Part shown: positions 5,983 through 21,050 of the stretch, piece by piece
How positions within the stretch are numbered: the stretch's first letter is position 1
Layout of the letters: the number at the start of each line of letters is the position of its first letter
Assembly: GCA_008080745.1 (NCBI GenBank)
Contig: SHMX01000004.1
Coordinates: forward strand, 180,001-212,000
From: Candidatus Thorarchaeota archaeon
Lineage (GTDB): Archaea; Asgardarchaeota; Thorarchaeia; Thorarchaeales; Thorarchaeaceae
Length of the DNA: 32,000 nucleotides
Direction: 5' to 3'
Position numbers and translations under genes: made by a program
Notes under the pieces: generated by a model
Seen by the model: only the letters and a program-made list of their open reading frames with translations
Told to the model about the DNA's origin: nothing
The model's database searches: none

Positions 5983-6114
5983 TCATTTGAAAGGCTCTCT
6001 AATTGGAGGTATCAGCATTATGAAAATAATCAGTATTGCAAACGTAAGTGGGAATGCCATTAATACGGGTGTTGGAATAATGAATATCGCCATGGGAATT
6101 GTGAGTATGTTCAC
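5983..6114 (-). CDS. Putative small hydrophobic membrane protein (43 aa from GTG 6114)
   Basis: Translates as MNILTIPMAIFIIPTPVLMAFPLTFAILIIFIMLIPPIREPFK. It starts 2 nt after the stop of the reconstructed upstream gene and is followed directly by a terminator-like hairpin. Confidence 0.4.
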   Translation of the reverse strand: MNILTIPMAIFIIPTPVLMAFPLTFAILIIFIMLIPPIREPFK

Positions 6115-6171
6115 AATTAATGCGTAGAGCCATCCCTCTTCTTTACGGGTTTGATGTACAACCAGGCTATC

Positions 6172-6179
6172 AGAATTAG
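6172..6179. repeat. Target-site duplication AGAATTAG, left copy (right copy 6377-6384)
   Basis: The same 8-mer flanks both sides of the insertion. The left copy abuts the first base of homology with the second element copy. Confidence 0.7.
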
Positions 6180-6376
6180 GGTATGCAACAGCTGGTGAGA
6201 TCTTGGACAAAGTTGGACAAGATCCGATAGGGGTTTATATAGGGTGATACCAAATGAAGTACTGGTTGAAAGACATAGCATCCCTGACCAGGACAGAGTC
6301 TCACCCAGTGCCGTTACCTGGGAGGCCAACGCTCTGATGTCCAAGATTGTCCAATAAACAATGAACGGTTATTCCA
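6180..6376. mobile_element. MITE-like non-autonomous element, copy 1
   Basis: 6180-6369 aligns without gaps to 20861-21050 with 22 mismatches in 190. It is bounded by an 8 bp direct repeat and has inverted subterminal TGGACA-N4-TGGACA / TGTCCA-N4-TGTCCA motifs. No transposase is present. Confidence 0.72.
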
Positions 6377-6678
6377 AGAATTAGTCCGACTCCTGCTTCA
6401 GGCATCACCAACAAAAATCCATACAACGAGAAAAGAGTTAGAAAAGCTCCATATCCAATGTTCAGAGAGAATACGATTTTATCTGCCACGTGAGAAAAAT
6501 CCATTTCAGAAAATTTGTATATCTCCTGTTATGAAAACACCTTACACCATATCTAGTATGTTGGTTCTCGTGATTATCTTTACAAACCAACAGTTAGAGA
6601 TGCCGAATTTGTGTTTATGCAATAAATTCTGAATCAAAACATATATCCAATTGAATTTAAAATATCTTGAAGAGCACA

Positions 6679-7131
6679 ATGGCACAAATTTGCAATACCT
6701 GTGAGGGAAAATACTCTTCTCTTTGGAAACGTGGCACAAAAAATGTTTGTTCTCGATGTATCCAAATCCATCTCCTTGAAAATTCATACTCTATCTTCTC
6801 ATCAGAGGCCAGAGATGCACTACGCTTAATCACGAAAGAAATCGAGCGTTTACTTGATAAACAGCAAGAACAGGAGACTTTTCATCTGCTAAAAAAGGGA
6901 TTGTCGTACATAAATGGCTATTTGATTCATGAAGCAGATTTTCGCCTTCTTGAGAGTGGAATCTACTGGTACAACGAAGCTATGAAGAAGGAGGACCGCC
7001 TTGATTCCTCTCAATTTATTGTAGATCGTACTCTTCTAGTTGGTAATACTAGATTCATCATTGTAATCTATCTCAAGAAAGGCATGAAAGACGAGGTCTG
7101 GAAGTTCTTCACAGGAATACGGAATACGTGA
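6679..7131 (+). CDS. Hypothetical protein with N-terminal zinc-ribbon-like CxxC...CxxC
   Basis: MAQICNTCEGKYSSLWKRGTKNVCSRC. ATG 6679 is preferred over TTG 6667. Confidence 0.7.
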   Translation: MAQICNTCEGKYSSLWKRGTKNVCSRCIQIHLLENSYSIFSSEARDALRLITKEIERLLDKQQEQETFHLLKKGLSYINGYLIHEADFRLLESGIYWYNEAMKKEDRLDSSQFIVDRTLLVGNTRFIIVIYLKKGMKDEVWKFFTGIRNT

Positions 7132-7294
7132 TATTGTCTGATACTGGATAGATGTGGGAAGTTTCATCTATGCTAAGTTGGAATTTTATTGAACAAAATG
7201 TCTCTCTGCTACAATTGTGTGTAGGATTGATGAAGGTCTTAAATACACCTCCATCCTGCGAAAGGATATAATCCTCGTGAACCGTCCTATCGCT

Positions 7295-7831
7295 CTAGAT
7301 TGTTGTAAGCTCAATTATCCATTCTCGAATCTGGTCCCAATCACGAAAGTCCATCACATCAGGAACCTCTTCTCCTTCATTCATAGATTTCTTTACAATA
7401 CTCTTAACCATACGTCTTACAACAAAGTTGTATTTCTTAAAATCGAACATACCACCGAATAGACCTGTAGATACAGGTTTAATCTCAGGATATTGAGCTG
7501 CGATATTATCGAGGTACATAGTCTGTGCTTCATCACATTTTGCAGGATCACCTGCATCTCCACAGACTACAAATATTGCTACTTTCTTTGTTGCTAGCAA
7601 TGATGTATTCTCTTCAATAAACTTCAAGGGCTCCTTTGCCCATCGTCCCGCCTGAATTCCACTTCCAATCGCAATCAAGTCATAGTCTTCAATGGGATCT
7701 GGTAGGCTTCCTTCCTTTAGATCCACTGCATCAATGGAAACTCCTGCTTCCCGTGCAGTTTTTACCATCTCTTGTACAACTTCAGTAGTTGTTCCATACC
7801 GTGAACGATAACATATTCCGATTCGGTTCAT
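7295..7831 (-). CDS. Flavodoxin-domain protein (Flavodoxin_5 / HemG-like)
   Basis: FMN-binding loop YRSRYGTTTEV, then YDLIAIGSGIQAG, VAIFVVC, FGG and DFRDWDQIREW. The start is placed at the ATG of MNRIGICY, and the track start at 7885 is probably too long. Confidence 0.85.
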   Translation of the reverse strand: MNRIGICYRSRYGTTTEVVQEMVKTAREAGVSIDAVDLKEGSLPDPIEDYDLIAIGSGIQAGRWAKEPLKFIEENTSLLATKKVAIFVVCGDAGDPAKCDEAQTMYLDNIAAQYPEIKPVSTGLFGGMFDFKKYNFVVRRMVKSIVKKSMNEGEEVPDVMDFRDWDQIREWIIELTTI

Positions 7832-8344
7832 ATCTATCAACATGGATGTATATTCTTCCTCACAAAATGATTTCGGCATGTGCACAAGACTTCAATCAGA
7901 AATCTCAGATTGTTGAATTTATGATGCTCGAGCCGCTTTTCAGGTAAGATAATGAGTTGTCTTTGAAACAGCGTAGTCCTCTGGAATCGGGAATGTGTAC
8001 ACTTGCACTCTCATAGAATGCCCCCGCAATTATAGTGATGAGCGATTGTGTTGAATGATATCTTCGTGAGCTAACGTCATGCACCTTAGATTTGAATAGC
8101 GTTTCGGTTTTGAAAGCATATCAGTAGAGTTGACGAACTGATCTATGCTGCCTTGGTTTTCGAGACCTATCTGGAAGAACTCTAGGCAAATTTTGCAGAT
8201 TTCTTTATTACGATTTATCTCTCTCTCGGACTTGGTTATGAGTTAGGTTTCGATGGTCTTATAGAATTCTTCAGATACATGCAGAAACCGTTAAAAGTCA
8301 TCAGAAGAAGACTCTCTTGTTCACATCTTTGATGTGGAAATTCA

Positions 8345-8420
8345 GCCGGTCTGGCGGAGAAGCTGACGCAACAGACTGCAAATCTGTATCACTTGGGTGC
8401 AAATCCCAAGGCCGGCTCCA
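8345..8420 (+). tRNA. tRNA-Cys(GCA) with encoded CCA
   Basis: Acceptor GCCGGTC/GGCCGGC, D-stem GCG/CGC, anticodon arm ACAGA-CTGCAAA-TCTGT, T-arm TTGGG-TGCAAAT-CCCAA, discriminator U73 (the Cys identity element), then CCA. Length 76 nt, followed by a T-rich tract. Confidence 0.92.
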
Positions 8421-8501
8421 TTTCTATTTCATCTTCATTTTTGGTATATACTTTCGAAGTCTTATCATAACATTTAACGCGAACAAATAAACCATAGTAT
8501 A

Positions 8502-8540
8502 TTTATATATATTATATCATAATATATGATAAGATGAGGT
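8502..8540 (+). promoter_or_regulatory. Probable TATA box and SD-like site for the Rab-like GTPase gene
   Basis: TTTATATA at 8502-8509 lies in a very AT-rich stretch. GAGGT at 8536-8540 sits 8 nt before TTG 8549. Confidence 0.45.
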
Positions 8541-8548
8541 TGTGTTAG

Positions 8549-9142
8549 TTGAAAGAAGCGGCGTATATCTACAAGATATGTGTTATTGGAAATGGGGGTG
8601 TAGGTAAAACAAGTGCTGTAAAACGTTACTCTAAGGACGTATTCAGTGAAGACTATCAAGTCACAGTAGGTGTACAGCATTCTTCACAAACCATTAAGAT
8701 TGAGGGTGATGAGGGACCAACATTGGTAAAGACAATAGTGTGGGACCTGGGCGGGCAAGACAAATTCAAGTTCGTACGTCCAATGTTTTATCGTGCAGCT
8801 CGTGGGTTAGTCCTAATGTTCGATATTACCGATAAAAAGTCATTCGAAGATTTACCAAAATGGATTCAAGAAGCAGAGTCCAATATAGGACACTCTGTAC
8901 CAATCATATTAGTGGCGAATAAGGTTGACCTAGATAATCATGCCATTGAAATCCACGAAATCGAGCGTTATGCTGAATTTATTGGTGCAGAATACATTCT
9001 TGCATCAGTAAAGACTGGAGAGAATATCGATAACGTCTTTGTTAAGATCGGTGAAGCTCTTTATAATAATCGGGAACCAAGTACTAGAACTGGTTCCGAG
9101 AATGTTTCTTGTATTTCAACAGTGGGACGCGCTTCTATTTAG
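8549..9142 (+). CDS. Rab-like small GTPase (Ras superfamily)
   Basis: G1 GNGGVGKT, G2 TVGV, G3 WDLGGQDKF, RabF-like FYRAARG, G4 NKVD, G5 SVK. Confidence 0.92.
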   Translation: MKEAAYIYKICVIGNGGVGKTSAVKRYSKDVFSEDYQVTVGVQHSSQTIKIEGDEGPTLVKTIVWDLGGQDKFKFVRPMFYRAARGLVLMFDITDKKSFEDLPKWIQEAESNIGHSVPIILVANKVDLDNHAIEIHEIERYAEFIGAEYILASVKTGENIDNVFVKIGEALYNNREPSTRTGSENVSCISTVGRASI

Positions 9143-9170
9143 TTAATACACACAGTAGATTTTTAGTTGG

Positions 9171-11405
9171 TTGTTTCTGAGATTCAGATGTATTCCATTG
9201 AGTAATGAAATTGAGGACCTTGCGAAATCTGTTTTGCTTGATATAGGACATTCCATTCAAGATACTTTAGTAGAAAATAGACGTGTGAATAGAACTGTAT
9301 CTGAAGCGGTACGAATTGCCTCTTTGATTTACTCTCTTAGTATGTTTCAAAATAGAGACGCATTAGAGTTAGTGAAATCGAAAAGAATGCCGTTTTTATC
9401 CCTGTCATATCCTGCACAACAAAATGGCATATCTATTGACCAAGTGGTTTCGTTGGTTAGAGATCTATTAGACCAAGATATTAGAGTTTACAATACTATC
9501 TCGGAACTCACAACTCTTCAATATATTGAGCTTCTCCATCGGATTCATTCCTTAGGAGTATTCAATCCTATCATGCTTCGTAAGACAAAAACTCAACGAA
9601 AAACTGGGTCTGTCTATACTCCTTATTCCTTAGCAAAACACATTGTGAAATTAACAATCAATCCTCTTGTTAAAAAGTATTCCTCACCAAGTTCTATACC
9701 TGATTTTCTCTCAATTCGAATACTAGATCCTGCTTGTGGGCCTGGTATGTTCCTCGTTGCCTTGTACTTAGAATTCTGCACTCATATTAAGCATGTATTA
9801 TCGGAATCCCTTGCCACTCATGAAAAACTGGATTCTTCTCAATTAGTTGAGATTAAAGGAGGAATTGCAAGAAATCTATTTGGAGTTGATTTAGACAAGG
9901 CATCTTTGGAAATTGCAGATGTCGCTCTTAGTTTATTATCTGATGTAGATTTGATGGAAGAATCAGCATTTCTTGATAAGACTTTGAAACAGGGTAATTC
10001 TCTTATATCTATCAGTGGACTTGATGGCGGCCAGGATTACAGCAGTTTCTTTTCTGACCCATTAGCTCGATTACCTTTTGAATGGAGATCAGAATATACA
10101 ACCTGTTTTCAAAGAGGAGATTTCGGATTTGATTGTATTGTGATGAATCCCCCTTACAATAGACTAAAACCAAACCTCGCTGAATTTCTACGAGAAAAAT
10201 TGGTAATAGGTGAACGCGAGATACAGATGAGCTCTTTTGATGCATTCAAATCACAGCTTGCTGAGGATGTTGGTTACTTTCGAAATTCTGGAGAGTATCA
10301 ACTTGCTAACAAATACACTCTCGATACTTATCGTTTGTTCGTTGAGCGGGCTATTCAACTCTTAAGACCCTCAGGATATATGGGCTTCATAGTTCCATCA
10401 ACCCTTCTAGGAGATCTTTCTGCTAAGATGCTTCGAAAATACATCTTCTCTCATACCGATGTTGATACAATTGAGATATACGTAGAACAAGCTGGATTAT
10501 TCGAGCAAGTTACTCAATCCGTTTGTATTCTCACCACTCAACTTGGTAGTCCAAGTCAGAATATTACTCTAAAATTTGATGGAACTGAACTGGGTAAATT
10601 TTCTTCTCAAAAATTCATAAAACTATCCACAGAAGAGATTCGACAGGTTTCAGGCTCTTCAATGGTCGTTCCTCAGGTTACGCGGGATGGTTTAGGAATC
10701 CTAAAAAAGATACATAGACATCCCTCCTTGGGTCAACTTAGATGGGTGGAAATTTTTAGAGGTGAACTCGATCTTACAAATAATTCTTCATTCATTCAAG
10801 ATCATCAAAATGATACTCCTCTCATTCGTGGAGCTAACATCGATCGTTTTAGAATCGATTTAGATTCTATTGAACACTCAGTTAATTTCGAATTTTTTTC
10901 CGAATGGTTGAAGGGTTCTCGTAGACATCCCCATCTTCAACAACAAAGGATAGCCTGTCAACAAATATCAAATAGGGCTCAGAGATGGAGATTAAAATTT
11001 GCGAAGATTTCACCCAATTCCATCTTAGCTAATTCATGCAATTATATTGCAGTATCAAATTATAATCCGTCTGACTATCTTGATTACTTGCTAGGGTTAC
11101 TCAACTCCAGTCTTCTAAACTGGAGATTCGCCTTATCAAATACCAATAATCATGTGTCAAATAGAGAATTGGCTGCTCTTCCTGTTGTAAATCCCGTTAC
11201 TGCTACTGCAAATGGAACAAAGCTAATTCAACAAATAATTGACTGGGTACGAGAGCATACCTCAAATAGAATCGATACAGTTCCTCTTGATATCTTAGTA
11301 TTCCGTTTGTTCGGACTTGATCCAAATGAAGCCAAAGTAATATTGACTCGACAAAATGCAGGAAAGAGTGAGATGTCTGAGATTATTAGTAGCTTAATTT
11401 TGTAG
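9171..11405 (+). CDS. N6-adenine DNA methyltransferase, gamma class, resembling the Alw26I/Eco31I/Esp3I (M1.BsaI-like) family
   Basis: GSVYTP, ILDPACGPGMFL and IVMNPPY in gamma order, plus a TaqI-like C-terminal region (PLIRGANIDRF). The segment FIVPSTLLGD...LRKYIF...AGLFEQVTQ resembles this family as I recall it. Confidence 0.85.
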   Translation: MFLRFRCIPLSNEIEDLAKSVLLDIGHSIQDTLVENRRVNRTVSEAVRIASLIYSLSMFQNRDALELVKSKRMPFLSLSYPAQQNGISIDQVVSLVRDLLDQDIRVYNTISELTTLQYIELLHRIHSLGVFNPIMLRKTKTQRKTGSVYTPYSLAKHIVKLTINPLVKKYSSPSSIPDFLSIRILDPACGPGMFLVALYLEFCTHIKHVLSESLATHEKLDSSQLVEIKGGIARNLFGVDLDKASLEIADVALSLLSDVDLMEESAFLDKTLKQGNSLISISGLDGGQDYSSFFSDPLARLPFEWRSEYTTCFQRGDFGFDCIVMNPPYNRLKPNLAEFLREKLVIGEREIQMSSFDAFKSQLAEDVGYFRNSGEYQLANKYTLDTYRLFVERAIQLLRPSGYMGFIVPSTLLGDLSAKMLRKYIFSHTDVDTIEIYVEQAGLFEQVTQSVCILTTQLGSPSQNITLKFDGTELGKFSSQKFIKLSTEEIRQVSGSSMVVPQVTRDGLGILKKIHRHPSLGQLRWVEIFRGELDLTNNSSFIQDHQNDTPLIRGANIDRFRIDLDSIEHSVNFEFFSEWLKGSRRHPHLQQQRIACQQISNRAQRWRLKFAKISPNSILANSCNYIAVSNYNPSDYLDYLLGLLNSSLLNWRFALSNTNNHVSNRELAALPVVNPVTATANGTKLIQQIIDWVREHTSNRIDTVPLDILVFRLFGLDPNEAKVILTRQNAGKSEMSEIISSLIL

Positions 11406-11450
11406 TTTATTTCTTGTACATTAGAGTAATCTTTTCATAGTCTAAATCAG

Positions 11451-12692
11451 ATGTGTTTTCTGAATGGTATGGTCCTTGTTCAAGCAGAGATGGTGAGTTC
11501 ACAGAAGGAGAAGAATTCACTATTTAATCATGTGAGTGCAACACTCAGTCAGTTAGATATGGAGATGATACAATCTGTTCCACAGGGGGGAAACTGGCAA
11601 GATATACCCTCTCACATAGTGGAAAAATCCGCCCGATTGATGCAAATTCGAGAATCTGGTGGAAGAACCACATACTACGGCCGTTTGCATCCTGATTACC
11701 CGAGTTATACAATTAGTACCTACTTCAATAGACCAGGGAATGGTACCTTTATTCATCCCGATCAAGATCGACTCATATCTTTACGCGAAGGAGCGAGACT
11801 ACAATCCTTCCCTGATGATTATCGCTTTTTAGGAAGCCAAACTTCGATGTACAAACAGATCGGGAACGCAGTACCTCCACTATTAGCAAGGTCTATTGCT
11901 GAGAGTATACCTGTTGGTCTTGCCGTAGACCTTTTTGCTGGTGCGGGTGGTCTCTCTCTTGGTTTGGTCCAATCAGGACATAGACCTATTGTTGCTGCAG
12001 ATAATAATCGTAACATGTGCCTTACTTATTCATATAATCACCCTGATACAATGACATCTCTCTCTAATCTCCAAAATACAGAAGATTTTGAAAATTTATG
12101 CAACTTGATTGATAATACCCTTCATGGAAGAACATTACAGCTAGTTGCAGGAGGTCCACCTTGTCAGGGTTTCTCTACCGCTGGAAAATGGGATAGCAGA
12201 GACTCAAGAAATTCACTAGTGGTACCAATGCTGAAGGTGATTCAAAGATTCCAACCAGAATTTGTTTTGATTGAAAATGTTCTTGGACTCAAGTGGATGG
12301 AAAAGGGAGCAATCCTTCAGAGAATAATCTCTATCCTTGATTCAATGGAATATTCTACTCAATGGTACACATTCAAGGCAGAAGCATATGGTGTACCACA
12401 GAGACGAAGAAGAATTTTCATCATAGGGTCCCGATCTGGTGACTACGACGCGCCCACTCCTTTTTTTGCTTCGGTAAAACGAACCAGAAATCGTGACATC
12501 ATCCAATATTCATCGAATCAACTTCCATTACCAATCTCTGTTCGAGAAGCGATATTCGACCTGCCTGAGATAGAATCAGGGAATATCTCACATATACAAT
12601 CATATAATGGTGAAAGCGTTTTATCAAATTACCAGAAATACATGCGTGATGAGATATCTTACGAAGAATTTCTCAAATCAGTACAATCCTGA
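11451..12692 (+). CDS. Circularly permuted C5-cytosine DNA methyltransferase (M2.BsaI/M2.Eco31I-like)
   Basis: Motifs IX (LREGARLQSFPDDY) and X (YKQIGNAVPP) come before motif I (DLFAGAGG), IV (GGPPCQGFS), VI (ENV) and VIII (GVPQRRRRIF). Confidence 0.93.
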   Translation: MCFLNGMVLVQAEMVSSQKEKNSLFNHVSATLSQLDMEMIQSVPQGGNWQDIPSHIVEKSARLMQIRESGGRTTYYGRLHPDYPSYTISTYFNRPGNGTFIHPDQDRLISLREGARLQSFPDDYRFLGSQTSMYKQIGNAVPPLLARSIAESIPVGLAVDLFAGAGGLSLGLVQSGHRPIVAADNNRNMCLTYSYNHPDTMTSLSNLQNTEDFENLCNLIDNTLHGRTLQLVAGGPPCQGFSTAGKWDSRDSRNSLVVPMLKVIQRFQPEFVLIENVLGLKWMEKGAILQRIISILDSMEYSTQWYTFKAEAYGVPQRRRRIFIIGSRSGDYDAPTPFFASVKRTRNRDIIQYSSNQLPLPISVREAIFDLPEIESGNISHIQSYNGESVLSNYQKYMRDEISYEEFLKSVQS

Positions 12693-12763
12693 TTTGCGGA
12701 GGATTTTTCCATAGAAGTATTTTATAGTTTCATTCCCTTTATCTATCAGATGGAGTAATTGCA

Positions 12764-14449
12764 TTGATAGTTCATGCGGCTTTAATCGACCTACTAAGTG
12801 GCAAAGTAATGTCACAGTTGGATTTCACAAAGGGAAACCTAAGATCGGCACAGGTTGATATGGCTGTAGATAGTTATTTTGCATTCTTACAGGCAGGACT
12901 TGAAGATACATGTAGTACAGCTGAAATTGGGAGCAATGCTGTTTTACTCTGCAAAGTGAATGATATCACTCTCTTGGCTTGTTTTAGTGATGATAAAAAA
13001 ATAGATGACGACCAACTAGAATCTGCGAAAATACTCAGTTCTCAAGTCAAAGAACGAATTGGTGAAAAATCTGCAAGAAAGGTTAGAGGTATATTTCCTT
13101 CTTTAGCACGTGAGCAGTTTCAGAAAGCGGTATCAATTTTCTTCGTATCACACCATTATCCTGAGATTGATAATAAATCTGGACAAGCGGTACAGAAACT
13201 ACTGAATAGCAAACACTCATCCAATGAATCCTATTCTGTAAATGTGGGTCCATTTTCAATTTCATACAAACACGGTATTCCATCGGAGATTACGGGGTAT
13301 GATTCTAAATCACTGGAAGATATCGATGTTCTTGTATTTATTATATCTAATCCAATTTGGCCTGAATCAATATTTGACAGCGTTATCAGGAGATTTCGTG
13401 AGCATCCTGATATTCCGATACTTGTGGTTCCGGGATCTGATGATTATCTAGAAATTACCCGAAAATATGAAGAAAAATACGAAGTCATATTGTGCGATTC
13501 TGTTTCAGATGACCCGCATCGACTACTTGTATCGGTATTAGCATACAGTGGACTATCATTTGAACAACCAGAAATAGCAATGCAGAAATGGAGAATGGAC
13601 TCTATCGAAGCTTCTTCTGATGAACATTTACGGGAGAAAGAGGAGTTACTAGGACATCAAGCATTTTTTGTAATCGACAAACAAACAGGAAGACCAGTTT
13701 ACACTTATTTTTATGACCAACAATCTGTACTGCTTGATAGAATTCCCAATGTTGTGGCAGCTATTTCAGCTTTATCAATGGATCCTGATAGTAGCACGAA
13801 AACATCCGTTGTGCGAACTGGAAACTTGAATTATGCAATTATTGAGCGGAATGATTTGATATTTACATTGATTACTGGTCTAAAAGAAGATGCAGATGCT
13901 ATACGTTCTCAGTTCGCATTCCTACCTGATCTCTATTTTGACGAAGCACCTGATGATGTTATCAAACATGAGAATCCATATTCTGCTCCTCCCTTCACCT
14001 TGAAACTTCTAGCTACACTGCCTCCTGAACCCTTACCTGGGCGACTTATTCCGCAGCATAAGAATGAACCAGAATGGGAGAAATTCAAAGAGGAATCAGT
14101 CAGAGACTTCATTCAAGCCATTTGGCATACAATTGATGGAGATCGACCTATTTCCAGAATGGCTGTGGGTGATGGACCTCTCTTAGTGATAGGTGCTCTT
14201 CATCTCCTTAAATCACTAGGTGCTATAAACATGAAAATTGACGTGAGGTTGGAAGACATACCTGTATTGCAGACTACAGATCCTTCACATGTCAAATTAC
14301 CTTACACTGGGATCGAGTCGGTTCTGGATTATGTCAATGGAGATAATACATTGGGTGATATTTGCAATCACACGAATATAGAAATAGAGGTACTGAGAAC
14401 AGTCTTTGGGATGCTCTATAATCGTGGAGTTATTGATTTTCTGGAGTAG
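12764..14449 (+). CDS. Longin-like / degenerate GTPase-fold / longin-like / tandem winged-helix protein
   Basis: Segment-by-segment similarity to the next gene. Second longin-like region FFVIDKQTGRPVYTYFY...NVVAAISAL...IIERNDLIFTLIT. Two C-terminal repeats IDGDRPI and VNGDNTL...LYNRGVIDF. Confidence 0.75.
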   Translation: MIVHAALIDLLSGKVMSQLDFTKGNLRSAQVDMAVDSYFAFLQAGLEDTCSTAEIGSNAVLLCKVNDITLLACFSDDKKIDDDQLESAKILSSQVKERIGEKSARKVRGIFPSLAREQFQKAVSIFFVSHHYPEIDNKSGQAVQKLLNSKHSSNESYSVNVGPFSISYKHGIPSEITGYDSKSLEDIDVLVFIISNPIWPESIFDSVIRRFREHPDIPILVVPGSDDYLEITRKYEEKYEVILCDSVSDDPHRLLVSVLAYSGLSFEQPEIAMQKWRMDSIEASSDEHLREKEELLGHQAFFVIDKQTGRPVYTYFYDQQSVLLDRIPNVVAAISALSMDPDSSTKTSVVRTGNLNYAIIERNDLIFTLITGLKEDADAIRSQFAFLPDLYFDEAPDDVIKHENPYSAPPFTLKLLATLPPEPLPGRLIPQHKNEPEWEKFKEESVRDFIQAIWHTIDGDRPISRMAVGDGPLLVIGALHLLKSLGAINMKIDVRLEDIPVLQTTDPSHVKLPYTGIESVLDYVNGDNTLGDICNHTNIEIEVLRTVFGMLYNRGVIDFLE

Positions 14450-14627
14450 GGATTCATCATATGTATTACTGTTCTTCAGCTGACGATACGACACGTTGTA
14501 TCTATGAATCTCCTTTAGTCCAAGTACATGATAGATACCTTATTCTATTGTTATTACCAGATGAACACATCCAAAATGCAATAAGTATTAGCCAGAATCT
14601 TAAACTGTTACAGGAGTTCGTATTTGT

Positions 14628-16505
14628 TTGATTCATAATGTTCTACTGGTCAATAAAGTCGATGGTGAAGTAGTCACTAAAACAAGATTTTGGCGTATAG
14701 ATTTCACTGAATCTGATATTCAAGACTTTATTGTAGGCTATCGTGATGTGCGTAATACCCAAGGACTAGCAGAAGATACTCCTGTTTTTGTGGGCCCCCA
14801 CAAGATCTTTCATGGTGACGTAGACGATGATATGATTCTGATGTTTGTTACTGATGGTCGTGATGAGGATCGTACTATCAAGTCCAAAGTTCGTGAAGGG
14901 GCGGCAAAGATATCTACATCTCTTCGAGGAAACTCAATCGGTTATATTCGGGACAATCTCGAAGATATCCTTGGAGACCTAATCTTTACTCGATTCAAGG
15001 TTTCCTTCGTAGGCAGTGGTGGTGTGGGAAAGAGTACGTTACTTCGCCTTCTCTTCGGCAAAGAACCAGCTCCTGGTGGTTACACTCCTACTATCAATGT
15101 TGCTGTAGATAGCAGCGAAACAGTGCAATTTGGCACATTTCTAATTACGATCTGGGACTTCGCAGGGCAGGCTGTTTTCCAAGATCTTTGGGAGTTTTAC
15201 TTTTCAGGAACAGATGTCATCTTCCTCATCTGTGATAGCAGTTTTAGGAATGTCATGCAGACAAAGACACTCTTGAGAAATATTAGAAAAGAGGCTCCAG
15301 GCGTACCATTGTATATCATTGCAAACAAACAGGACCTTCCCGAGTCAATGAAAGCAGACAAAATTCAAAGATTGCTTGGCGCTTCAACTTTTCCAATGAT
15401 TGCAGTAAATAAAGAACGTAGAAATGAATTCATTCGTTTCATGCTAGAGGTTGCTGCAAACACCATTGGTGTTGAGCTTCCAGACCGTCCCATATCTGAG
15501 ATGATTACTGTTAGAAGAGAAACCGAACCTGAACAGGCCGCTCCAGGGACCGATGCTGCAGAATCTGTCGATTCTTCTGAAACAGGAGATATAGAAGAAA
15601 CTCATGCAGTTGAGAGTGATACTGAGGTAGTATCTGGCCCCCCAACAAAAATCCTGCAGTTATTGTTCATAGTTCAGAATCAAAACATGTATGAGATTTC
15701 GCTTCATCTGAACTACACACAAGAAGATGTAGATCCAAGTTCAATAACTTCGCTCATCAATGCCCTTGATATGTTCAAGGGGATGGGTGATGAGGGGGCA
15801 GATCCATCGAAACAGACTGATTCTCTAAAGACTATTGAACATGACGGAAAGGTTGGCAATCATACATGGGTTGAGAAGACCGACCATTTCATTCTCGCAG
15901 CAATTGTTAACAATACACGTGATGAAGATCAAATCCGGGTCATCATGAAGTCGATTCTAGATGAGGCTGAGGACAGATACAAAACAGAATTACGTGGTTT
16001 GAATCCCTCAGAACCCATCGATATCTCCATGTTCGAACCCTTGATTTTTGACATTCTTGATTTGTATCCCCTGCGCAAACTGGGACTTAATTACCTTGTC
16101 AGAGCTAGAGAGGCTGGTAGACCTCTTCCATTTGATAATAGAACGGTGGGTCACGCAGTTGTCACAGTTAAAGCTGCAATCGATGGTACATCCACGGTCG
16201 GAAGTCTTGTCAGGGCTTTAGACTTGACGCGTGACAAAGTCTTCGGAGCTTTGCAGATTATGGAAAAGTATGGTTGGGTCGACTTCAAGGTCGATATCGG
16301 ACCTGATACTGTTCTTCTTAAAGTTCGAGAACCTGATCCTGAGATTGGAAAGATATACGGTGAAGTTATGCTTAATCTCATTGACCGGTGTGATGGAAAG
16401 ACACCTCTCAAGGATATTGTAAAAGCATTGAAGATCTCGTTACCACCAGTTATCTTTGTTGTGACTAAACTGGTGCTAGATAGTGTGCTTGAAGTAGTTG
16501 CATGA
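14628..16505 (+). CDS. Longin-like / small GTPase (Arf/Rag-like) / acidic linker / longin-like / tandem winged-helix protein
   Basis: G1 GSGGVGKST, G2 YTPT, G3 WDFAGQ, G4 NKQD. The N-terminal (VLLVNKVDG...ILMFVTD) and internal (ITSLINAL...ILAAIVN) segments are longin-like. Two C-terminal repeats IDGTSTV...MEKYGWVDF and CDGKTPL...LVLDSVLEV. Confidence 0.85.
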   Translation: MIHNVLLVNKVDGEVVTKTRFWRIDFTESDIQDFIVGYRDVRNTQGLAEDTPVFVGPHKIFHGDVDDDMILMFVTDGRDEDRTIKSKVREGAAKISTSLRGNSIGYIRDNLEDILGDLIFTRFKVSFVGSGGVGKSTLLRLLFGKEPAPGGYTPTINVAVDSSETVQFGTFLITIWDFAGQAVFQDLWEFYFSGTDVIFLICDSSFRNVMQTKTLLRNIRKEAPGVPLYIIANKQDLPESMKADKIQRLLGASTFPMIAVNKERRNEFIRFMLEVAANTIGVELPDRPISEMITVRRETEPEQAAPGTDAAESVDSSETGDIEETHAVESDTEVVSGPPTKILQLLFIVQNQNMYEISLHLNYTQEDVDPSSITSLINALDMFKGMGDEGADPSKQTDSLKTIEHDGKVGNHTWVEKTDHFILAAIVNNTRDEDQIRVIMKSILDEAEDRYKTELRGLNPSEPIDISMFEPLIFDILDLYPLRKLGLNYLVRAREAGRPLPFDNRTVGHAVVTVKAAIDGTSTVGSLVRALDLTRDKVFGALQIMEKYGWVDFKVDIGPDTVLLKVREPDPEIGKIYGEVMLNLIDRCDGKTPLKDIVKALKISLPPVIFVVTKLVLDSVLEVVA

Positions 16506-18644
16506 TTACTTAACAGGAATTACTATTCTTTCTCGGTAATCTGGGATCTTGATTCCTTTAGGTGTATCTTCATATGGCGTGTGTACCATGATTCTTTTTC
16601 CGGAACAAGATTGAATGTATTCTTCCAAATTTGATGCAGATGTATGAGCGCTCAATCGTGCATATTCAACTCTGCACTCATGTGGTTCATGGCCATTTAT
16701 GAGATTCCAACCTGGAGTTCTTGGAGCTAAATATCCGCACATAATTATTGCAGCATTTGGATTATCACGGTGTTCATTGAAATGGTGCCTAGCTAGACCA
16801 CCAGACATCATTCCACCCCCAGCGACAAGAATATCGTCTTTTTCAAGGTAGACCTTGTTCTTTTTCATACTCTGCCACTTACCATGATACCCTGTAAGCT
16901 TGGTAATCTTCTCAGCTAATCCTGCAACCATTACATTCCTAGTTTCTGTGATTCCTGTATTATCCAACAGCATCAACATCTCTTGTGTTCTTCCAACAGC
17001 AAAACTTGGGATAACTACTGGTCCATGTTCATCAACTATATCTGTTACTTGACGAGCGACAGCATCTCTACTAAAATCTTCTCTGCCCCAATACGTTCCA
17101 TCAAAAATCACAGCATCACAATCTGTAGGAAGGTTTGCTCCTTCAAATAAAACTGATTTATCCAGGTTGAAATCCCCCGTATATAGTATCTTTACTCCTT
17201 CTATATCTAGAAGGTAAGCAGCGCTCCCTGGAATATGGCATGCATCAATTGGTGTTGCCAAAATCCCTGGACCTACCTCCTGGGTCTTTCCATATTCTAG
17301 GATAATGTGATTATTAAATACTCTATCAATATTCTTCTGAGTAAAGCGTGAAACTAAATCATATTTGTCATATTTTCTTGGAGGGAGCGGAGTTCCGATG
17401 TGCATAGCATCTTCTAGTAGAGCTTTTCCAATTCCTCCAGTTATTCCTACAGAACACCATTTTCCTGAAAAGCTATCGTAGAGGATAGGTAGACCGCCAA
17501 GATGATCGAGATGTGAATGGCTGATGAGCACTGTATCAATCATCTCTAACTCTGGAGTCCATTCTGGAATTCTTTGATTTGCCACGGAAAGACCATAATC
17601 CAGAAGGATTCCCCCTGTATCAGTCTTAATTAGAATTCCACTTCTTCCAATATGTGGACCACCCAAAAAGATGATTTCTATGGTTTTTGTAGTAGTTGAA
17701 TACGCCACAGCGGGAAGTAAATCCTTCCTCATTTTTTCAGGTATCAACTCAAAAATAACAGGATCAATAGCTTCTGGAGCGGGTGGTGAAGGTAGTTCTT
17801 GTAATCTAATTGGCAGGTCAAATTCACCATTAGTAAAGCCCTCCTCTCTGAAACAATTTTGAACGCTGGTATAAGCTGAATCTACAGACATCTCAGAATT
17901 GATATTTTTCTGTCCTTTATGATATGCTGTTTTCCTAATTGATCTGAATGATTTAGCCATCATTCCATCCGGAAGCCAATCATTCGATTCCTCAATGATT
18001 TCTCTTAGGGATTTGTCTTGTATTGCCTCTTCGAGATACTGAGGATGTCTCACTACAGAATCAACAAATCGCATACCATCTGTATTGACACTCTCGTCAA
18101 TGCTTTCTCCAAATTCCTCAATAATTTCTGCAAATTCTCTATGATTCCAAAGAGGGCATCCAAGAAATCTGATCCATTCTCTAACAGTCTGAAGAAAATC
18201 TCTTCCGTGAGCATCCTTGGTTAATGCTATGACGACAAGGGCCCTCTTCAACCACTCTTCTATCTTTTTTGAATCACGGATATTGTACAATGAGTATCTA
18301 TATGCATAACGAAATTCTTCATCTGAATAATTATCAAATAAGAAATTGTAAAGGAGCAGGGTCATAGCATCTATGTAATCTTCTGTATTGATTTTCAGTA
18401 ATGCATCTCTCAAAACACCATCCAATATTTTGTATACATTTTGAGCAGTTTCAAGCATCTCCAATTCAATATCTGAGTCTCTTAATACAGCCCAAACTAT
18501 CAATTCTGGACTTTCACCGAATAACCCCTTCTGGCCCGAAATTGGTGTTCCTTTAACAGCTTTCTTTGCATCTTCAAGTCCTTGTTTGAAAAACTCTAAA
18601 ACAATCTTGTTCTTTGTTTCAGGAACATCGGTATCGATTTTCAA
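16506..18644 (-). CDS. Metallo-beta-lactamase beta-CASP ribonuclease (CPSF73/aCPSF-like) with ~290 aa unrecognised N-terminal domain
   Basis: LLDYG, HSHLDH, CHIPGS, YTGD, DGTY, PSFAVGRTQE, SAHT and VHT motifs lie in the C-terminal ~420 aa. Confidence 0.88.
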   Translation of the reverse strand: MKIDTDVPETKNKIVLEFFKQGLEDAKKAVKGTPISGQKGLFGESPELIVWAVLRDSDIELEMLETAQNVYKILDGVLRDALLKINTEDYIDAMTLLLYNFLFDNYSDEEFRYAYRYSLYNIRDSKKIEEWLKRALVVIALTKDAHGRDFLQTVREWIRFLGCPLWNHREFAEIIEEFGESIDESVNTDGMRFVDSVVRHPQYLEEAIQDKSLREIIEESNDWLPDGMMAKSFRSIRKTAYHKGQKNINSEMSVDSAYTSVQNCFREEGFTNGEFDLPIRLQELPSPPAPEAIDPVIFELIPEKMRKDLLPAVAYSTTTKTIEIIFLGGPHIGRSGILIKTDTGGILLDYGLSVANQRIPEWTPELEMIDTVLISHSHLDHLGGLPILYDSFSGKWCSVGITGGIGKALLEDAMHIGTPLPPRKYDKYDLVSRFTQKNIDRVFNNHIILEYGKTQEVGPGILATPIDACHIPGSAAYLLDIEGVKILYTGDFNLDKSVLFEGANLPTDCDAVIFDGTYWGREDFSRDAVARQVTDIVDEHGPVVIPSFAVGRTQEMLMLLDNTGITETRNVMVAGLAEKITKLTGYHGKWQSMKKNKVYLEKDDILVAGGGMMSGGLARHHFNEHRDNPNAAIIMCGYLAPRTPGWNLINGHEPHECRVEYARLSAHTSASNLEEYIQSCSGKRIMVHTPYEDTPKGIKIPDYRERIVIPVK

Positions 18645-18654
18645 TTTGATAATT

Positions 18655-19713
18655 CTACTCCTTTGTTTTTCCTTCGTTCACTCGATAAATTCCCTGTCGA
18701 CTATCTCTTAGTGATATTTTCTTTGACACTAGGCCCTCCGATATAAGAATTGAGAGGGCATAGCGTACCGTCCTGGGAGGTAGAATAGATTCTGCAATTA
18801 TTTCCTTTTGGGTTAAGGGTCCTTCATATTCCAATACTTTCAACACCAACTTTGCACTTGGCGGAAGATCTTGTGCCAAGTCTTCAAATTCTTCCGTTTT
18901 TCTCAGCAATTTACCTCTGAGATTAGCTATTCTCTCTCTACTAAATTGTACGAAAACCGCATCAGTATCAGCCTTTCTAATAGATATTGGGCCTGAACTC
19001 ACCTTCTTTCTAAGTTGCCCATCAAATATTGCTTCCACCGATACGGAGCAGCTGATATCACGAATTTCAATCTCTGTGTCTTCTGATACAACCACTGCGC
19101 GTGTTGCAGGGTTTATGCTATTGACTGGGAGAATCGATACTACAGACGCGGGACTTAGGATTACCGGCCCTCCAACACTCATTGAATATGCTGTGCTTCC
19201 AGTAGGAGTTGCTACTAGTATTCCGTCACTCCCGTCTTTGAGGAATTGCTCCCCATCTAAATATAGAGAGTACCGCATCAAAGTTGCACTTTTTTTGGCA
19301 AAGATACCTATATCATTCAAAATAGGAGGTCCATTTTTTCCAGTAATATTTACCACAAGTCGGGATCTATGGTCTTCTTTCCATTTTCTTGAAAGAATAT
19401 CCTCCATTATCTGGTCAAAATCCGAAATAGTGATATCAAACAAAAAATCAGGTTGTCCTTTTGACGCAACGGGTAATATTGGAATCTCTTTGTCTCCAAG
19501 TTTCAATAGAGTATTTAGAAGTGTTTTATCGGACCCTATTACTATGAGTAAATTTGCTTTAACTTTCTTTAGAGGGGTTCCCTGTCTATCTAAGAATTGA
19601 GATATATCTTCGTCTATATTCACATCAGCACCTGAATCTTCCAAAATTTTTAGAATCTGTTTTGCATCATCTAATACTGATGATTCGGAATCTGACGTTA
19701 CAAAAATCTTCAT
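18655..19713 (-). CDS. nadK: NAD kinase fused to a C-terminal winged-helix DNA-binding domain
   Basis: LNDIG and DGILVATPTGSTAYSMSVGGP motifs are present, and the GGDG motif reads GSDK. The C-terminus LPPSAKLVLKVLEYEGPLTQKEIIAESILPPRTVRYALSILISEGLV is a wHTH. Confidence 0.85.
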   Translation of the reverse strand: MKIFVTSDSESSVLDDAKQILKILEDSGADVNIDEDISQFLDRQGTPLKKVKANLLIVIGSDKTLLNTLLKLGDKEIPILPVASKGQPDFLFDITISDFDQIMEDILSRKWKEDHRSRLVVNITGKNGPPILNDIGIFAKKSATLMRYSLYLDGEQFLKDGSDGILVATPTGSTAYSMSVGGPVILSPASVVSILPVNSINPATRAVVVSEDTEIEIRDISCSVSVEAIFDGQLRKKVSSGPISIRKADTDAVFVQFSRERIANLRGKLLRKTEEFEDLAQDLPPSAKLVLKVLEYEGPLTQKEIIAESILPPRTVRYALSILISEGLVSKKISLRDSRQGIYRVNEGKTKE

Positions 19714-19770
19714 TATATCCTCTCATTCTAAGATTTCTATATGTAGACTATTCTGTAACTCTTAAATGGA

Positions 19771-19818
19771 GCTGATATCGACTTAACTGTTGATTTCAGC
19801 ACAAGGGCAAAATTTGCC
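19771..19818. promoter_or_regulatory. Two palindromes in the nadK/nadA divergent intergenic region, candidate operators
   Basis: GCTGATATCGAC-N6-GTTGATTTCAGC (19771-19800, 10/12 inverted match) and GGCAAA-A-TTTGCC (19806-19818, perfect). Confidence 0.4.
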
Positions 19819-19890
19819 ACTCTACTAGAAACATGGAAAAGTTTGCCGATTGTGATTCTGTTAATAAGACTGTGACAAACTCATAAGCAG

Positions 19891-20856
19891 GTGAATGTAG
19901 TGGGAAATGAACTCACCAAACTTCAGAAAAAGATTCTCAAGTTGAAAAAAGAACGCAATGCGTTGATATTAGCGCATAATTATCAGACTATGGATATTCA
20001 AGAGATAGCTGATTTTGTAGGGGATTCCTTAGAACTAGCGAGAAAGTCTGCTGAAGTAGAAGGGTATGACCTTGTTATCTTTGCAGGTGTGAAATTTATG
20101 GCAGAGATGTCTGCTGTGCTAACTAAAGATGTTCCAGTCTACATTCCCGATACTCGATCAATCTGTCCCTTGGCGGCATTTGTAGATGGTAGTAAGCTTC
20201 GTGAGATTAAGAAGGAACACCCTGGTGCTCCTGTTGTGGTCTATGTGAATACTACTGCTGAAACCAAATCTGAGTCCGATATTATTTGCACCTCAGGAAA
20301 CGCTCCAGAGATTGTTGAAGCTTTAGGTGTTGAGAAGGTCCTCTTTGGTCCTGATAGCAATCTTGCAGAATATGTCAGGAGAAGAACTGATGTGGAAGTC
20401 ATTGACATTGAACCACGTGGTCATTGTTATGTTCACGATCAATTTGACATTGCACAAATCGAATTACTTCGTGAAGAAAATCCTGACGCTATTGTGATTG
20501 CTCATCCCGAATGTCCTCCTGAAGTTCAGGATGCTGCAGATATAGTAGGATCTACATCAATGATGGCAAGAACTGTAGCCAATTCTCCCGAGAAGAAATT
20601 CATCATCGCAACAGAGTTGGGTCTTGTTCACCAAATCCAGAAACATAATCCCGATAAGATTGTCCTTCCTGCCTATGAGGGAGCAATTTGCAGGCAAATG
20701 AAGAAGAATACCCTCGAGAAAATTCTCCATATTTTAGAAGACTTACCAGAAGAAAATCTGGTTTCTGTTCCTGAAGAGATGGTTGAACATGTTCGTACAA
20801 TTCTTGAACGGATGAATCGAGCACCATCAACATTGGAATCAATAGTTGCGAAATAA
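19891..20856 (+). CDS. nadA: Quinolinate synthase A
   Basis: ILAHNYQ, GVKFMAE, CPLA, YVNT, CTSGNA, GPDSNL, CYVH, AHPEC, TELGL and CRQMK motifs, including the three Fe-S cysteines. Confidence 0.96.
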   Translation: MNVVGNELTKLQKKILKLKKERNALILAHNYQTMDIQEIADFVGDSLELARKSAEVEGYDLVIFAGVKFMAEMSAVLTKDVPVYIPDTRSICPLAAFVDGSKLREIKKEHPGAPVVVYVNTTAETKSESDIICTSGNAPEIVEALGVEKVLFGPDSNLAEYVRRRTDVEVIDIEPRGHCYVHDQFDIAQIELLREENPDAIVIAHPECPPEVQDAADIVGSTSMMARTVANSPEKKFIIATELGLVHQIQKHNPDKIVLPAYEGAICRQMKKNTLEKILHILEDLPEENLVSVPEEMVEHVRTILERMNRAPSTLESIVAK

Positions 20857-20860
20857 CAAA

Positions 20861-21050
20861 GGTATGCAACAGCTGATCAAAACGTGGACATATCTGGACA
20901 AAAAACGATAGGAGCTTAGATAGGGTGATACAGAATGAAGTGCTGGTTGAAAGACATAGTATCCCTGACCAGGACAGAGTTTCACCCAGTGCCGTTACCC
21001 GGGAGGCCAACGCTCTGATGTCCAAGATTGTCCATAAAACAATGAACGGT
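20861..21050. mobile_element. MITE-like non-autonomous element, copy 2 (between convergent nadA and longin gene)
   Basis: 168/190 identical to 6180-6369, same orientation, no indels, with all four TGGACA/TGTCCA hexamers conserved. Confidence 0.72.

What the first reader, a model, noticed from the sequence alone, without database searches (positions are those of the whole stretch)
6180..21050. Unannotated ~200 bp mobile element in two copies with inverted TGGACA-N4-TGGACA motifs
6180-6369 and 20861-21050 are a gap-free direct repeat 14.7 kb apart with 22 mismatches in 190 bp. Fourteen mismatches fall in 6190-6239, yet the two TGGACA hexamers there (6204-6209, 6214-6219) are untouched while the 4 bp spacer changes (AAGT vs TATC). 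The inverse pair TGTCCA-AGAT-TGTCCA sits near the other end (6338-6353). Hexamers spaced one helical turn apart and in inverted orientation are what repeated transposase or recombinase binding sites look like (inference). The extreme ends are not a clear terminal inverted repeat and no transposase is in the window, so I cannot assign an IS family.
Basis: partly seen in the sequence, partly recalled or inferred. Interest (0 to 1): 0.72.

Follow-up and report, generated by a model that had tools for sequence, protein, structure and literature searches.

The report
Miniature IS607-family transposon, two copies
The two 190-bp repeats are gene-less miniature copies of an IS607-type transposon of an Asgard (Thorarchaeota-type) archaeon, a known kind of mobile element; the TGGACA pairs are most likely the docking sites of its serine-recombinase transposase, so the finding is real but ordinary.

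Summary
The element has about 16 copies in this genome (window = G000:C4:180001-212000), each with unrelated flanks. Both window copies are missing from the orthologous sites of a same-genus genome.

Copy 1 is a net 187-bp insertion at a GG inside a small membrane-protein gene, with no target duplication. The AGAATTAG "8-bp duplication" is host coding sequence.

Longer elements with the same ends carry a MerR-HTH serine recombinase (TnpA; closest homologues named "IS607 family transposase", Thorarchaeota) plus a TnpB nuclease. No Y1 transposase was found in the genome. The ends have the IS607 hallmarks:
- GG at both termini
- an nGGG target
- no terminal inverted repeat
- inward-facing 10-bp-spaced repeats at unequal distances from the ends

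TGGACA-N4-TGGACA occurs 50 times against 0.46 expected, and 49 of these sit at element ends.

The conserved 3' half keeps the right end of the parent IS. It folds into three helices with some compensatory changes, preceded by a conserved TATA-like box. It is probably a TnpB guide-RNA (omega RNA) scaffold; that part is inferred.

The mismatch cluster arises because both copies carry left-end tips from a sister subfamily.

The scan had already reached the same family assignment on other copies in this genome. Low novelty.

The parts
6180..6368 (+). Copy 1 of the miniature IS607-family element, from left core GG to right core GG. The net insertion is 187 bp, inside a small membrane-protein gene on the minus strand.
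   Evidence: Multiple alignment of 16 genomic copies fixes the ends. The empty orthologous site in same-genus genome G001 shows the interval is 27 nt in both genomes once 187 bp are removed.
20861..21049 (+). Copy 2 of the same element, in the short spacer between the convergent nadA (19891-20856, +) and a longin-domain gene (21064-21684, -).
   Evidence: 88% identical to copy 1. Absent from the orthologous intergenic spacer of G001: a 47-bp gap there against 229 bp here. NadA and longin Pfam hits.
6180..6181 (+). Left core dinucleotide GG, preceded by G6179. The left junction reads nGGG in 20 of 21 left ends.
6367..6368 (+). Right core dinucleotide GG. The right end reads ...GAACGG.
6204..6219 (+). 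Left-end pair TGGACA-AAGT-TGGACA with a 10-bp period, 22 nt inside the left GG. Presumed site for one TnpA dimer.
   Evidence: Interpreted by analogy with IS1535 (PMC6188088).
6338..6353 (+). Right-end pair TGTCCA-AGAT-TGTCCA, inverted relative to the left pair and 13 nt inside the right GG.
6234..6241 (+). TTTATATA, an archaeal TATA-box-like motif at least 90% conserved in 30 copies from three genomes. It lies about 25 nt upstream of the first helix of the 3' half. Copy 2 has TTAGATA at 20916.
   Evidence: Alignment A1, nearly invariant columns. Promoter function is inferred.
6263..6368 (+). Candidate TnpB guide-RNA (omega RNA) scaffold of about 105 nt. Helices are 6263-6267/6286-6290, 6294-6298/6332-6336 and 6304-6308/6318-6322. 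The guide would be read from the flank starting at 6369.
   Evidence: Consensus fold. 96.7% of cells paired against 27-51% when partners are slid; 18 double-change cells against 5.0 +/- 1.8 in shuffles. The last 65 nt are homologous to the right end of the IS that encodes the 712-aa TnpB.
6369..6504 (-). N-terminal part of the interrupted small membrane-protein gene (MDFSHVADKIVF...GLILGIT).
   Evidence: The G001 orthologue is an intact 118-aa ORF.
5983..6181 (-). C-terminal part of the same gene. It is colinear with G001 after removal of the element but carries an extra -1 frameshift near 6138.

Best explanation
Each repeat is a non-autonomous, gene-less (MITE-like) derivative of an IS607-family insertion sequence resident in this Asgard (Thorarchaeota-type) archaeal genome. 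The full-length relatives carry tnpA (a serine recombinase with an N-terminal MerR-type HTH) and tnpB (an RNA-guided nuclease). The miniature keeps only the two ends. TnpA supplied in trans would bind the 10-bp-spaced TGGACA pairs near both ends, synapse them, exchange strands at the terminal GG dinucleotides to release a circle, and integrate the circle at another GG (preferred nGGG) without duplicating the target. The 3' half retains the right end of the parent, which in TnpB systems is the 3' part of the guide-RNA scaffold, behind a TATA-like box. Each copy therefore probably also specifies a guide RNA whose guide is the adjacent host DNA, usable in trans by TnpB to cut the emptied site. 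Shown: repeat family, exact ends, empty sites, absence of target duplication, GG ends, linkage of the same ends to TnpA(serine)/TnpB genes. Inferred: TnpA binding to the hexamers, transcription, and guide-RNA function.
For: Copy number and mobility:
- About 16 copies of roughly 190 bp with unrelated flanks in the own genome, plus a sister 317-bp family of at least 11 copies that shares the left end.
- Both window copies are absent from the orthologous loci of same-genus genome G001.
- Removing 187 bp makes the small membrane gene colinear with its intact 118-aa G001 orthologue (GLILGITLILIAWLYIKPVKK vs GLALGLALMLISWFYLKPVKK). So copy 1 is a clean insertion at GG without duplication.

Linkage to IS607 genes:
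- The same ends flank an element of about 2.6 kb on C1 with a MerR-HTH/Resolvase TnpA and a 712-aa TnpB.
- They also occur on a contig-end pair (C16 end: left end plus TnpA; C5 start: TnpB C-terminus plus right end) and on a 1.4-kb tnpB-only element on C2.
- TnpA homologues are named IS607 family transposase [Candidatus Thorarchaeota archaeon].
- No Y1 transposase (PF01797) was found in the genome.

End anatomy matches published IS607 features:
- No terminal inverted repeat and no duplication, GG termini, a (G)GG target, and short repeated subterminal motifs with an inverted repeat at unequal distances from the ends (PMC6188088).
- Here the distances are 22 and 13 nt, and the left junction is nGGG in 20 of 21 left ends.
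- The target nGGG against right end ACGG mirrors the CboIStron pair TAM TGGG / right end TCGG (bioRxiv 10.1101/2023.11.20.567912).

RNA part:
- Three helices with compensatory changes.
- The terminal 65 nt are homologous to the IS right end.
- A conserved TATA-like box lies upstream.
Against: All three tnpA genes in the assembly are truncated or decayed: 121 aa, 150 aa with a degenerate tail, and one fragment, against about 200 aa in homologues. No intact mobilising enzyme is therefore visible. The genome is 98% complete by markers, but copies of the IS sit at contig ends, so intact copies may be unassembled.

Only the last 65 nt of the miniature are recognisably homologous to the assembled IS copies. 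The origin of the middle 60-80 nt is unknown.

The support for helices is moderate. The number of pairs with a double change (3) is no higher than in shuffles (269/500), and the copies are related by descent.
Confidence: 0.9

Rival explanations
1. A miniature element of a DDE-transposase family that makes 8-bp target duplications (IS1, IS6, IS256, IS1595, ISL3 or IS66), as the first reader suggested checking.
For: AGAATTAG occurs at 6172-6179 and again at 6377-6384, on both sides of copy 1.
Against: The second AGAATTAG lies 8 nt beyond the conserved right end. Both copies of the octamer have counterparts in the uninterrupted G001 gene, and the interval length matches only if 187 bp are removed, not 205. 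No other copy has a flanking direct repeat. All longer elements with these ends carry a serine recombinase and/or TnpB, none a DDE enzyme.
Confidence: 0.02
2. A palindrome-associated element (PATE) of the IS200/IS605 family, moved as single-stranded DNA by a Y1 HUH transposase.
For: TnpB genes are associated with these ends, and gene-less IS605-type elements that keep guide RNAs are known (PMC10055086).
Against: No Y1_Tnp (PF01797) match in the 98%-complete genome. The tnpB-bearing elements with these ends have a MerR-HTH serine recombinase upstream. The ends are GG with an nGGG target rather than a hairpin with a tetra- or pentanucleotide target.
Confidence: 0.02
3. A family of structured non-coding RNA genes, or an old segmental duplication, conserved in place rather than mobile.
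For: The 3' half has conserved helices with some compensatory changes.
Against: There are sixteen copies with unrelated flanks, one of them inside a gene with a stop codon in frame. Both window loci are empty in the same-genus genome. No Rfam family matches at E <= 1. An RNA function is compatible with, not an alternative to, the mobile element.
Confidence: 0.02
4. A self-splicing or enzyme-spliced intron (IStron-like group I intron or archaeal bulge-helix-bulge intron) that leaves the interrupted gene functional.
For: Copy 1 sits inside a coding sequence. IS607-family IStrons that carry group I introns exist (bioRxiv 10.1101/2023.11.20.567912).
Against: No group I or other intron model matches at gathering threshold or at E <= 1. 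At 187 nt it is short for a group I intron. The whole-element fold is no more stable than shuffles (z -0.21 on the + strand, -0.57 on the - strand). The element lies antisense to the interrupted gene. The host gene also carries a -1 frameshift, as expected for a dead gene. Most copies are intergenic.
Confidence: 0.02

Closest known systems
IS607-family insertion sequences (IS607 of Helicobacter pylori, IS1535 of Mycobacterium tuberculosis, ISC1926 of Sulfolobus; Chen et al. 2018, PMC6188088)
   Same: Full-length relatives carry a MerR-HTH serine-recombinase TnpA plus TnpB. Termini are GG, insertion is at GG (preferred GGG), and there is no target duplication and no true terminal inverted repeat. 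Short subterminal repeats about 10 bp apart form an inverted pair at unequal distances from the two ends.
   Different: The window copies carry no gene at all (187 bp). The host is an Asgard archaeon. The associated TnpB is unusually large (712 aa) in one subfamily. Each end has only two clear motif copies, as in the IS1535 right end.
CboIStron mini-IS and its TnpB guide RNA (Zedaveinyte et al., bioRxiv 10.1101/2023.11.20.567912)
   Same: A minimal element lacking tnpA and tnpB is excised by TnpA(serine) in trans. The target/TAM TGGG against a right end of TCGG parallels nGGG against ACGG here, so the -3 position would distinguish the empty site from the element's own end.
   Different: No group I intron is detectable here. 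The Cbo mini-element is a laboratory construct, whereas these are natural multicopy derivatives. TAM and guide use are untested here.
PATEs / gene-less IS200-IS605 derivatives that keep omega RNAs (Meers et al., PMC10055086)
   Same: Protein-less derivatives that keep both ends and a guide-RNA scaffold and depend on transposase and nuclease made elsewhere.
   Different: Those move as single-stranded DNA through a Y1 transposase and have hairpin ends. This element belongs to the serine-recombinase family and has GG ends.
Classical MITEs of DDE transposons
   Same: Small, non-coding, multicopy, and dispersed in intergenic DNA and genes.
   Different: No terminal inverted repeats at the very tips and no target-site duplication.

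Membership tests
IS607 family (as a non-autonomous derivative) | Full-length elements with the same ends encode a serine recombinase with an N-terminal MerR-type HTH (TnpA) | tested here: met
   C1 element and C16 contig end: MerR/HTH_17 plus Resolvase Pfam hits. Homologues are named IS607 family transposase. The left ends of these elements share GGGT...AAAC-TTGGACA-N4-TGGACA with the miniature.
IS607 family (as a non-autonomous derivative) | Accompanying tnpB (OrfB) gene downstream of tnpA | tested here: met
   PF07282/PF01385 hits on C1 (712 aa), C5 start and C2 (412 aa) elements that carry the same right-end motifs.
IS607 family (as a non-autonomous derivative) | No target-site duplication | tested here: met
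   Empty site in G001: removing 187 bp restores colinearity and an equal 27-nt interval. No direct repeat abuts the ends in 15 copies.
IS607 family (as a non-autonomous derivative) | GG at both termini and insertion at a GG target (preferred GGG) | tested here: met
   The left junction is nGGG in 20 of 21 left ends. All right ends finish in CGG (one copy carries TGG). The inferred pre-insertion site of copy 1 is TTAGGGTTA.
IS607 family (as a non-autonomous derivative) | No terminal inverted repeat; short repeated subterminal motifs and an inverted repeat at different distances from the two ends | tested here: met
   TGGACA pairs lie 22 nt from the left GG and 13 nt from the right GG, with a 10-bp period.
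IS607 family (as a non-autonomous derivative) | Mobilisation by TnpA through a circular double-stranded intermediate | not testable with these tools
   Needs an excision or transposition assay. All tnpA copies in the assembly are truncated.
TnpB guide RNA (omega RNA / reRNA) | Lies at the right end on the tnpB strand and is homologous to the 3' end of a tnpB-bearing element | tested here: met
   The last 65 nt are 76-83% identical to the right end on C5 and 68-74% to that on C1, immediately after the TnpB stop codon.
TnpB guide RNA (omega RNA / reRNA) | Conserved secondary structure supported by covariation | tested here: inconclusive
   96.7% of cells are paired. 18 double-change cells against 5.0 in shuffles (0/500), but only 3 pairs show a double change (269/500), and the sequences are related by descent.
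TnpB guide RNA (omega RNA / reRNA) | Match to a curated RNA family | tested here: not met
   No Rfam 15 match at gathering score (window) or at E <= 1 on the two copies and three full-length elements.
TnpB guide RNA (omega RNA / reRNA) | Transcribed and bound by TnpB | not testable with these tools
   No RNA run is listed for this organism.
IS200/IS605 family (PATE) | Y1 HUH transposase in the genome and hairpin ends | tested here: not met
   No PF01797 match in the own genome. The ends are GG with direct hexamer repeats.

The most novel reading that the evidence does not exclude
The miniature is not just a dead shell but a mobile, promoter-bearing guide-RNA gene. Each copy transcribes, from its own TATA box, an RNA of about 105 nt plus a guide copied from the host DNA beyond the right end. 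The 712-aa TnpB made elsewhere uses these RNAs in trans to cut emptied sites, so that repair restores the copy. The left-end mosaics of both window copies would then be scars of such repair templated by non-allelic elements.
Probability: 0.3. Interest if true: 0.5.

Novelty: new member of a known kind. Interest (0 to 1): 0.25.

Why it matters
The result identifies an unannotated repeat family, explains a disrupted gene, and gives exact ends, target preference and presumed transposase sites for an IS607 lineage in Asgard archaea. Mobile elements in that group are little described, and IS607-type TnpB is of interest as the prokaryotic relative of eukaryotic Fanzor nucleases. Natural gene-less IS607 derivatives that keep a promoter and a guide-RNA scaffold would extend to serine-recombinase transposons the idea, proposed for IS605 PATEs, that guide RNAs and nucleases are modular and act in trans. 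This is an increment, not a new principle, and the scan had already reached the same assignment on other copies in this genome.

Tried and rejected
- Rfam scans found only tRNA-Cys in the window at gathering score and nothing at E <= 1 on both copies and three full-length elements.
- Single-sequence folding of the whole element on either strand is no better than shuffles (z -0.21 and -0.57). Only the comparative analysis of the 3' half gave a signal.
- The 8-bp AGAATTAG target duplication is rejected by the G001 empty site.
- A search for RNA data listed no RNA holder.
- Logan contigs laid on copy 1 break inside the repeat, and no contig joins across an empty site. Nothing can be said on population polymorphism.
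- I looked for the origin of the middle 60-80 nt of the element in the assembled IS copies and found none.
- I looked for an intact tnpA in the assembly by tblastn with own and foreign TnpA and found only three decayed copies.
- One Pfam call failed on a too-short second query and was repeated.
- Contig C19 (2.4 kb, very GC-rich) was inspected as a possible collapsed IS. It is unrelated, with long open frames in several overlapping frames on both strands.
Full report
**Observation**

The repeat is exactly as described. The repeat finder reports 6180-6369 and 20861-21050 as a gap-free 190-nt direct repeat at 88% identity. A script counts 22 mismatches, 14 of them in 6190-6239. It places TGGACA at 6204 and 6214 and TGTCCA at 6338 and 6348, with the same layout in copy 2.

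The motif is not chance. The 3.16-Mb genome holds 50 exact TGGACA-N4-TGGACA sites against 0.46 expected, and 49 of them lie at the ends of one element family.

**Copy number and ends**

The window is G000:C4:180001-212000. A search of the whole genome finds about 16 copies of the roughly 190-bp element (79-89% identical to copy 1) with unrelated flanks. It also finds a dozen matches to only the first 40 nt and a few to only the last 35 nt.

Aligning the copies with their flanks fixes the ends. Every copy begins (G)GGT[TA][TG]CAAACAG... and ends ...AACAATGAACGG(T), and nothing is conserved outside.

The left-end-only matches belong to a second gene-less family of about 317 bp (at least 11 copies) and to a 1.4-kb element on contig C2.

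**What the longer elements encode**

- The 1.4-kb element on C2 holds a 412-aa TnpB with HTH_OrfB_IS605, OrfB_IS605 and Cas12f1-like_TNB domains.
- An element of about 2.6 kb on C1, which splits another open reading frame, has the same kind of left end (GGGTAGGAAACAG...AAACTTGGACAAAGGTGGACA). It carries a MerR-HTH/Resolvase TnpA, a 712-aa TnpB, and a right end ...TGTCTAAGTTTGTCCAACTTTCAATCAACGG.
- Contig ends hold further pieces of a multicopy IS of the same kind. The C16 end has a left end, TnpA and the start of TnpB. The C5 start has the TnpB C-terminus and a right end 76-83% identical to the last 65 nt of the miniature. The C1 and C11 ends hold right ends.
- No Y1 transposase (PF01797) is found in the genome.
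- The closest TnpA homologues in public data are about 200 aa and are named IS607 family transposase [Candidatus Thorarchaeota archaeon].
- Arf/Roc-type GTPase and longin-domain genes in the window fit an Asgard host, as earlier notes of this scan also say.

**Proof of insertion**

A same-genus genome (G001) has both window loci without the element.

At copy 1, G001 aligns up to window 6164 and resumes at 6370, with 18 bp in between. In the detailed alignment the interval between conserved anchors is 27 nt in G001. It is also 27 nt in the window if the interior plus one GG (187 bp) is removed.

After that removal the minus-strand reading frame reads ...AGVGLILGITLILIAWLYIKPVKK..., colinear with G001's ...AAIGLALGLALMLISWFYLKPVKK.... 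The G001 gene is an intact 118-aa four-helix membrane protein.

The octamer AGAATTAG on both sides of copy 1 is therefore part of the host gene and not a target duplication. Removing 205 bp, as another first-stage note on this window proposed, would delete six codons that G001 has. The window gene also carries a -1 frameshift near 6138 relative to G001, as expected for a gene already dead.

At copy 2, the G001 spacer between nadA and the longin-domain gene is 47 bp against 229 bp here.

G001 has more than 40 matches of its own, many at contig ends. A genome of another genus (G007) has at least 17. In further genera of the family only the last 65 nt or so recur, in ten or more places each.

**Comparison with what is known of IS607**

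Chen et al. 2018 (PMC6188088) describe IS607-family ends as follows:
- They lack terminal inverted repeats and target duplications.
- They terminate in GG and insert at GG, with (G)GG preferred.
- They carry short repeated motifs plus an imperfect inverted repeat at different distances from the two ends.
- For IS1535, a TnpA dimer occupies two adjacent motifs about 10 bp apart, its two DNA-binding domains fitting successive major grooves on one face. The right end has only two motifs.

The element here meets each point:
- GG at both ends.
- Left junction nGGG in 20 of 21 left ends.
- Inward-facing TGGACA pairs at a 10-bp period, 22 nt from the left GG and 13 nt from the right GG.

Across 24 left ends the hexamers persist while the spacer varies through seven different tetranucleotides. 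This is the comparative signature of two separate recognition units. That TnpA binds them is inferred by analogy, not shown.

For the IS607-family CboIStron, TnpA selects TGGG, TnpB uses TGGG as its adjacent motif, and the guide-RNA scaffold ends UCGG. The -3 position thus separates the empty site from the element's own end (bioRxiv 10.1101/2023.11.20.567912). Here the same contrast holds: nGGG on the left against ACGG at the right end.

**The 3' half**

In an alignment of 30 copies from three genomes, the 3' 105 nt are much better conserved than the left third. RNAalifold proposes three local helices.

Counting pairs on these helices gives:
- 96.7% of cells paired, against 27-51% when partners are slid.
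- 18 cells with changes on both sides against 5.0 +/- 1.8 in shuffles (0 of 500 reach it).
- Pair 6295/6335 occurs as AU, CG, GU, GC and UA.

However, only three pairs show double changes, which shuffles match in 269 of 500 trials, and the copies share descent. I rate this moderate support.

A TTTATATA box (6234-6241) is at least 90% conserved and sits about 25 nt upstream of the first helix. That is the usual archaeal TATA-to-start distance by general knowledge.

The last 65 nt are homologous to the right end that follows the stop codon of the 712-aa TnpB gene. In TnpB systems that is the 3' end of the guide-RNA scaffold. PATE-like gene-less IS605 derivatives that keep guide RNAs and need TnpB in trans are already described (PMC10055086).

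I therefore think it likely, but unproven, that each copy specifies a guide RNA reading into its right flank. No Rfam model matches and no RNA data are listed.

**The mismatch cluster**

Both window copies are left-end mosaics.
- The first 42 nt of copy 1 are 41/42 identical to the left end of the 1.4-kb tnpB element on C2. After that the sequence follows the 190-bp family.
- The first 31 nt of copy 2 are 30/31 identical to the left end of the 317-bp family. The rest equals the 190-bp copy at C3:404265.
- The switch points lie at the second and first TGGACA respectively.

This explains why 14 of 22 differences fall in 6190-6239. How the mosaics arose is open. Options are recombination between elements, or repair templated by a non-allelic copy.

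**Activity now**

All three tnpA genes in the assembly are truncated or decayed relative to homologues of about 200 aa. No intact mobilising enzyme is visible. However, the IS copies are broken at contig ends, so one may be unassembled.

Logan contigs from two runs of one marine-sediment study (possibly the window's own source sample) confirm both junctions of copy 1.

**Verdict**

It belongs to a known family: it is a miniature IS607 derivative, probably carrying a TnpB guide RNA. Earlier follow-ups of this scan reached the same assignment on other copies in this genome. I reached it independently before reading them and tested the points listed above myself. Novelty is that of a new member of a known kind.

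Noticed in passing
window 6180-6225 and 20861-20891: Both window copies are left-end mosaics. Copy 1 carries the first 42 nt of the 1.4-kb tnpB element's left end. Copy 2 carries the first 31 nt of the 317-bp family's left end. The switch points lie at the TGGACA repeats, and the mechanism is unknown.
   Followed up: partly
window about 6138 (minus-strand gene 5983-6504): Besides the insertion, the small membrane-protein gene has a -1 frameshift relative to its intact 118-aa orthologue in G001 (AAGAAGAGG here against AAGAAAGAAGG there). It is either a pseudogene or a homopolymer assembly error.
   Followed up: partly
window 14628-16505 (+) and 21064-21684 (-): A 625-aa protein with an Arf/Roc/Ras-type small GTPase domain and a 206-aa protein with a weak longin-domain hit. 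Both are eukaryote-like signature proteins typical of Asgard archaea.
   Followed up: no
window 9171-12692 (+): Adjacent Eco57I/MmeI-like N6-methylase-type protein (744 aa) and a C-5 cytosine DNA methylase (413 aa), a likely restriction-modification island next to tRNA-Cys (8345-8420).
   Followed up: no
L038 (G000:C1:299800-303700): An IS607-type element of about 2.6 kb with a 712-aa TnpB and a truncated 121-aa TnpA is inserted inside, and splits, another open reading frame. The scan has already reported this.
   Followed up: partly
L041 459-2285 (G000:C2:478458-480284): A 608-aa protein with a TnpB-type zinc-ribbon (PF07282) hit and a long low-complexity tail. No element ends of the TGGACA type were noticed next to it.
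   Followed up: no
G000 contig C19 (2,448 bp): A very GC-rich short contig, with long open frames in several overlapping frames on both strands, unlike the roughly 40% GC genome. It is probably a binning contaminant.
   Followed up: no
G001 (same genus), many contig ends such as C20:1-143 and C41:20-149: The same miniature family is much more abundant in G001 (more than 40 matches) and sits at many contig ends, so it is a main cause of that assembly's fragmentation.
   Followed up: no
L037 1105-2291 (G001:C45): G001 has two extra genes (194 aa and 165 aa, the latter with a signal-peptide-like start) between the methyltransferase and the small membrane gene. They are absent from the window locus.
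   Followed up: no
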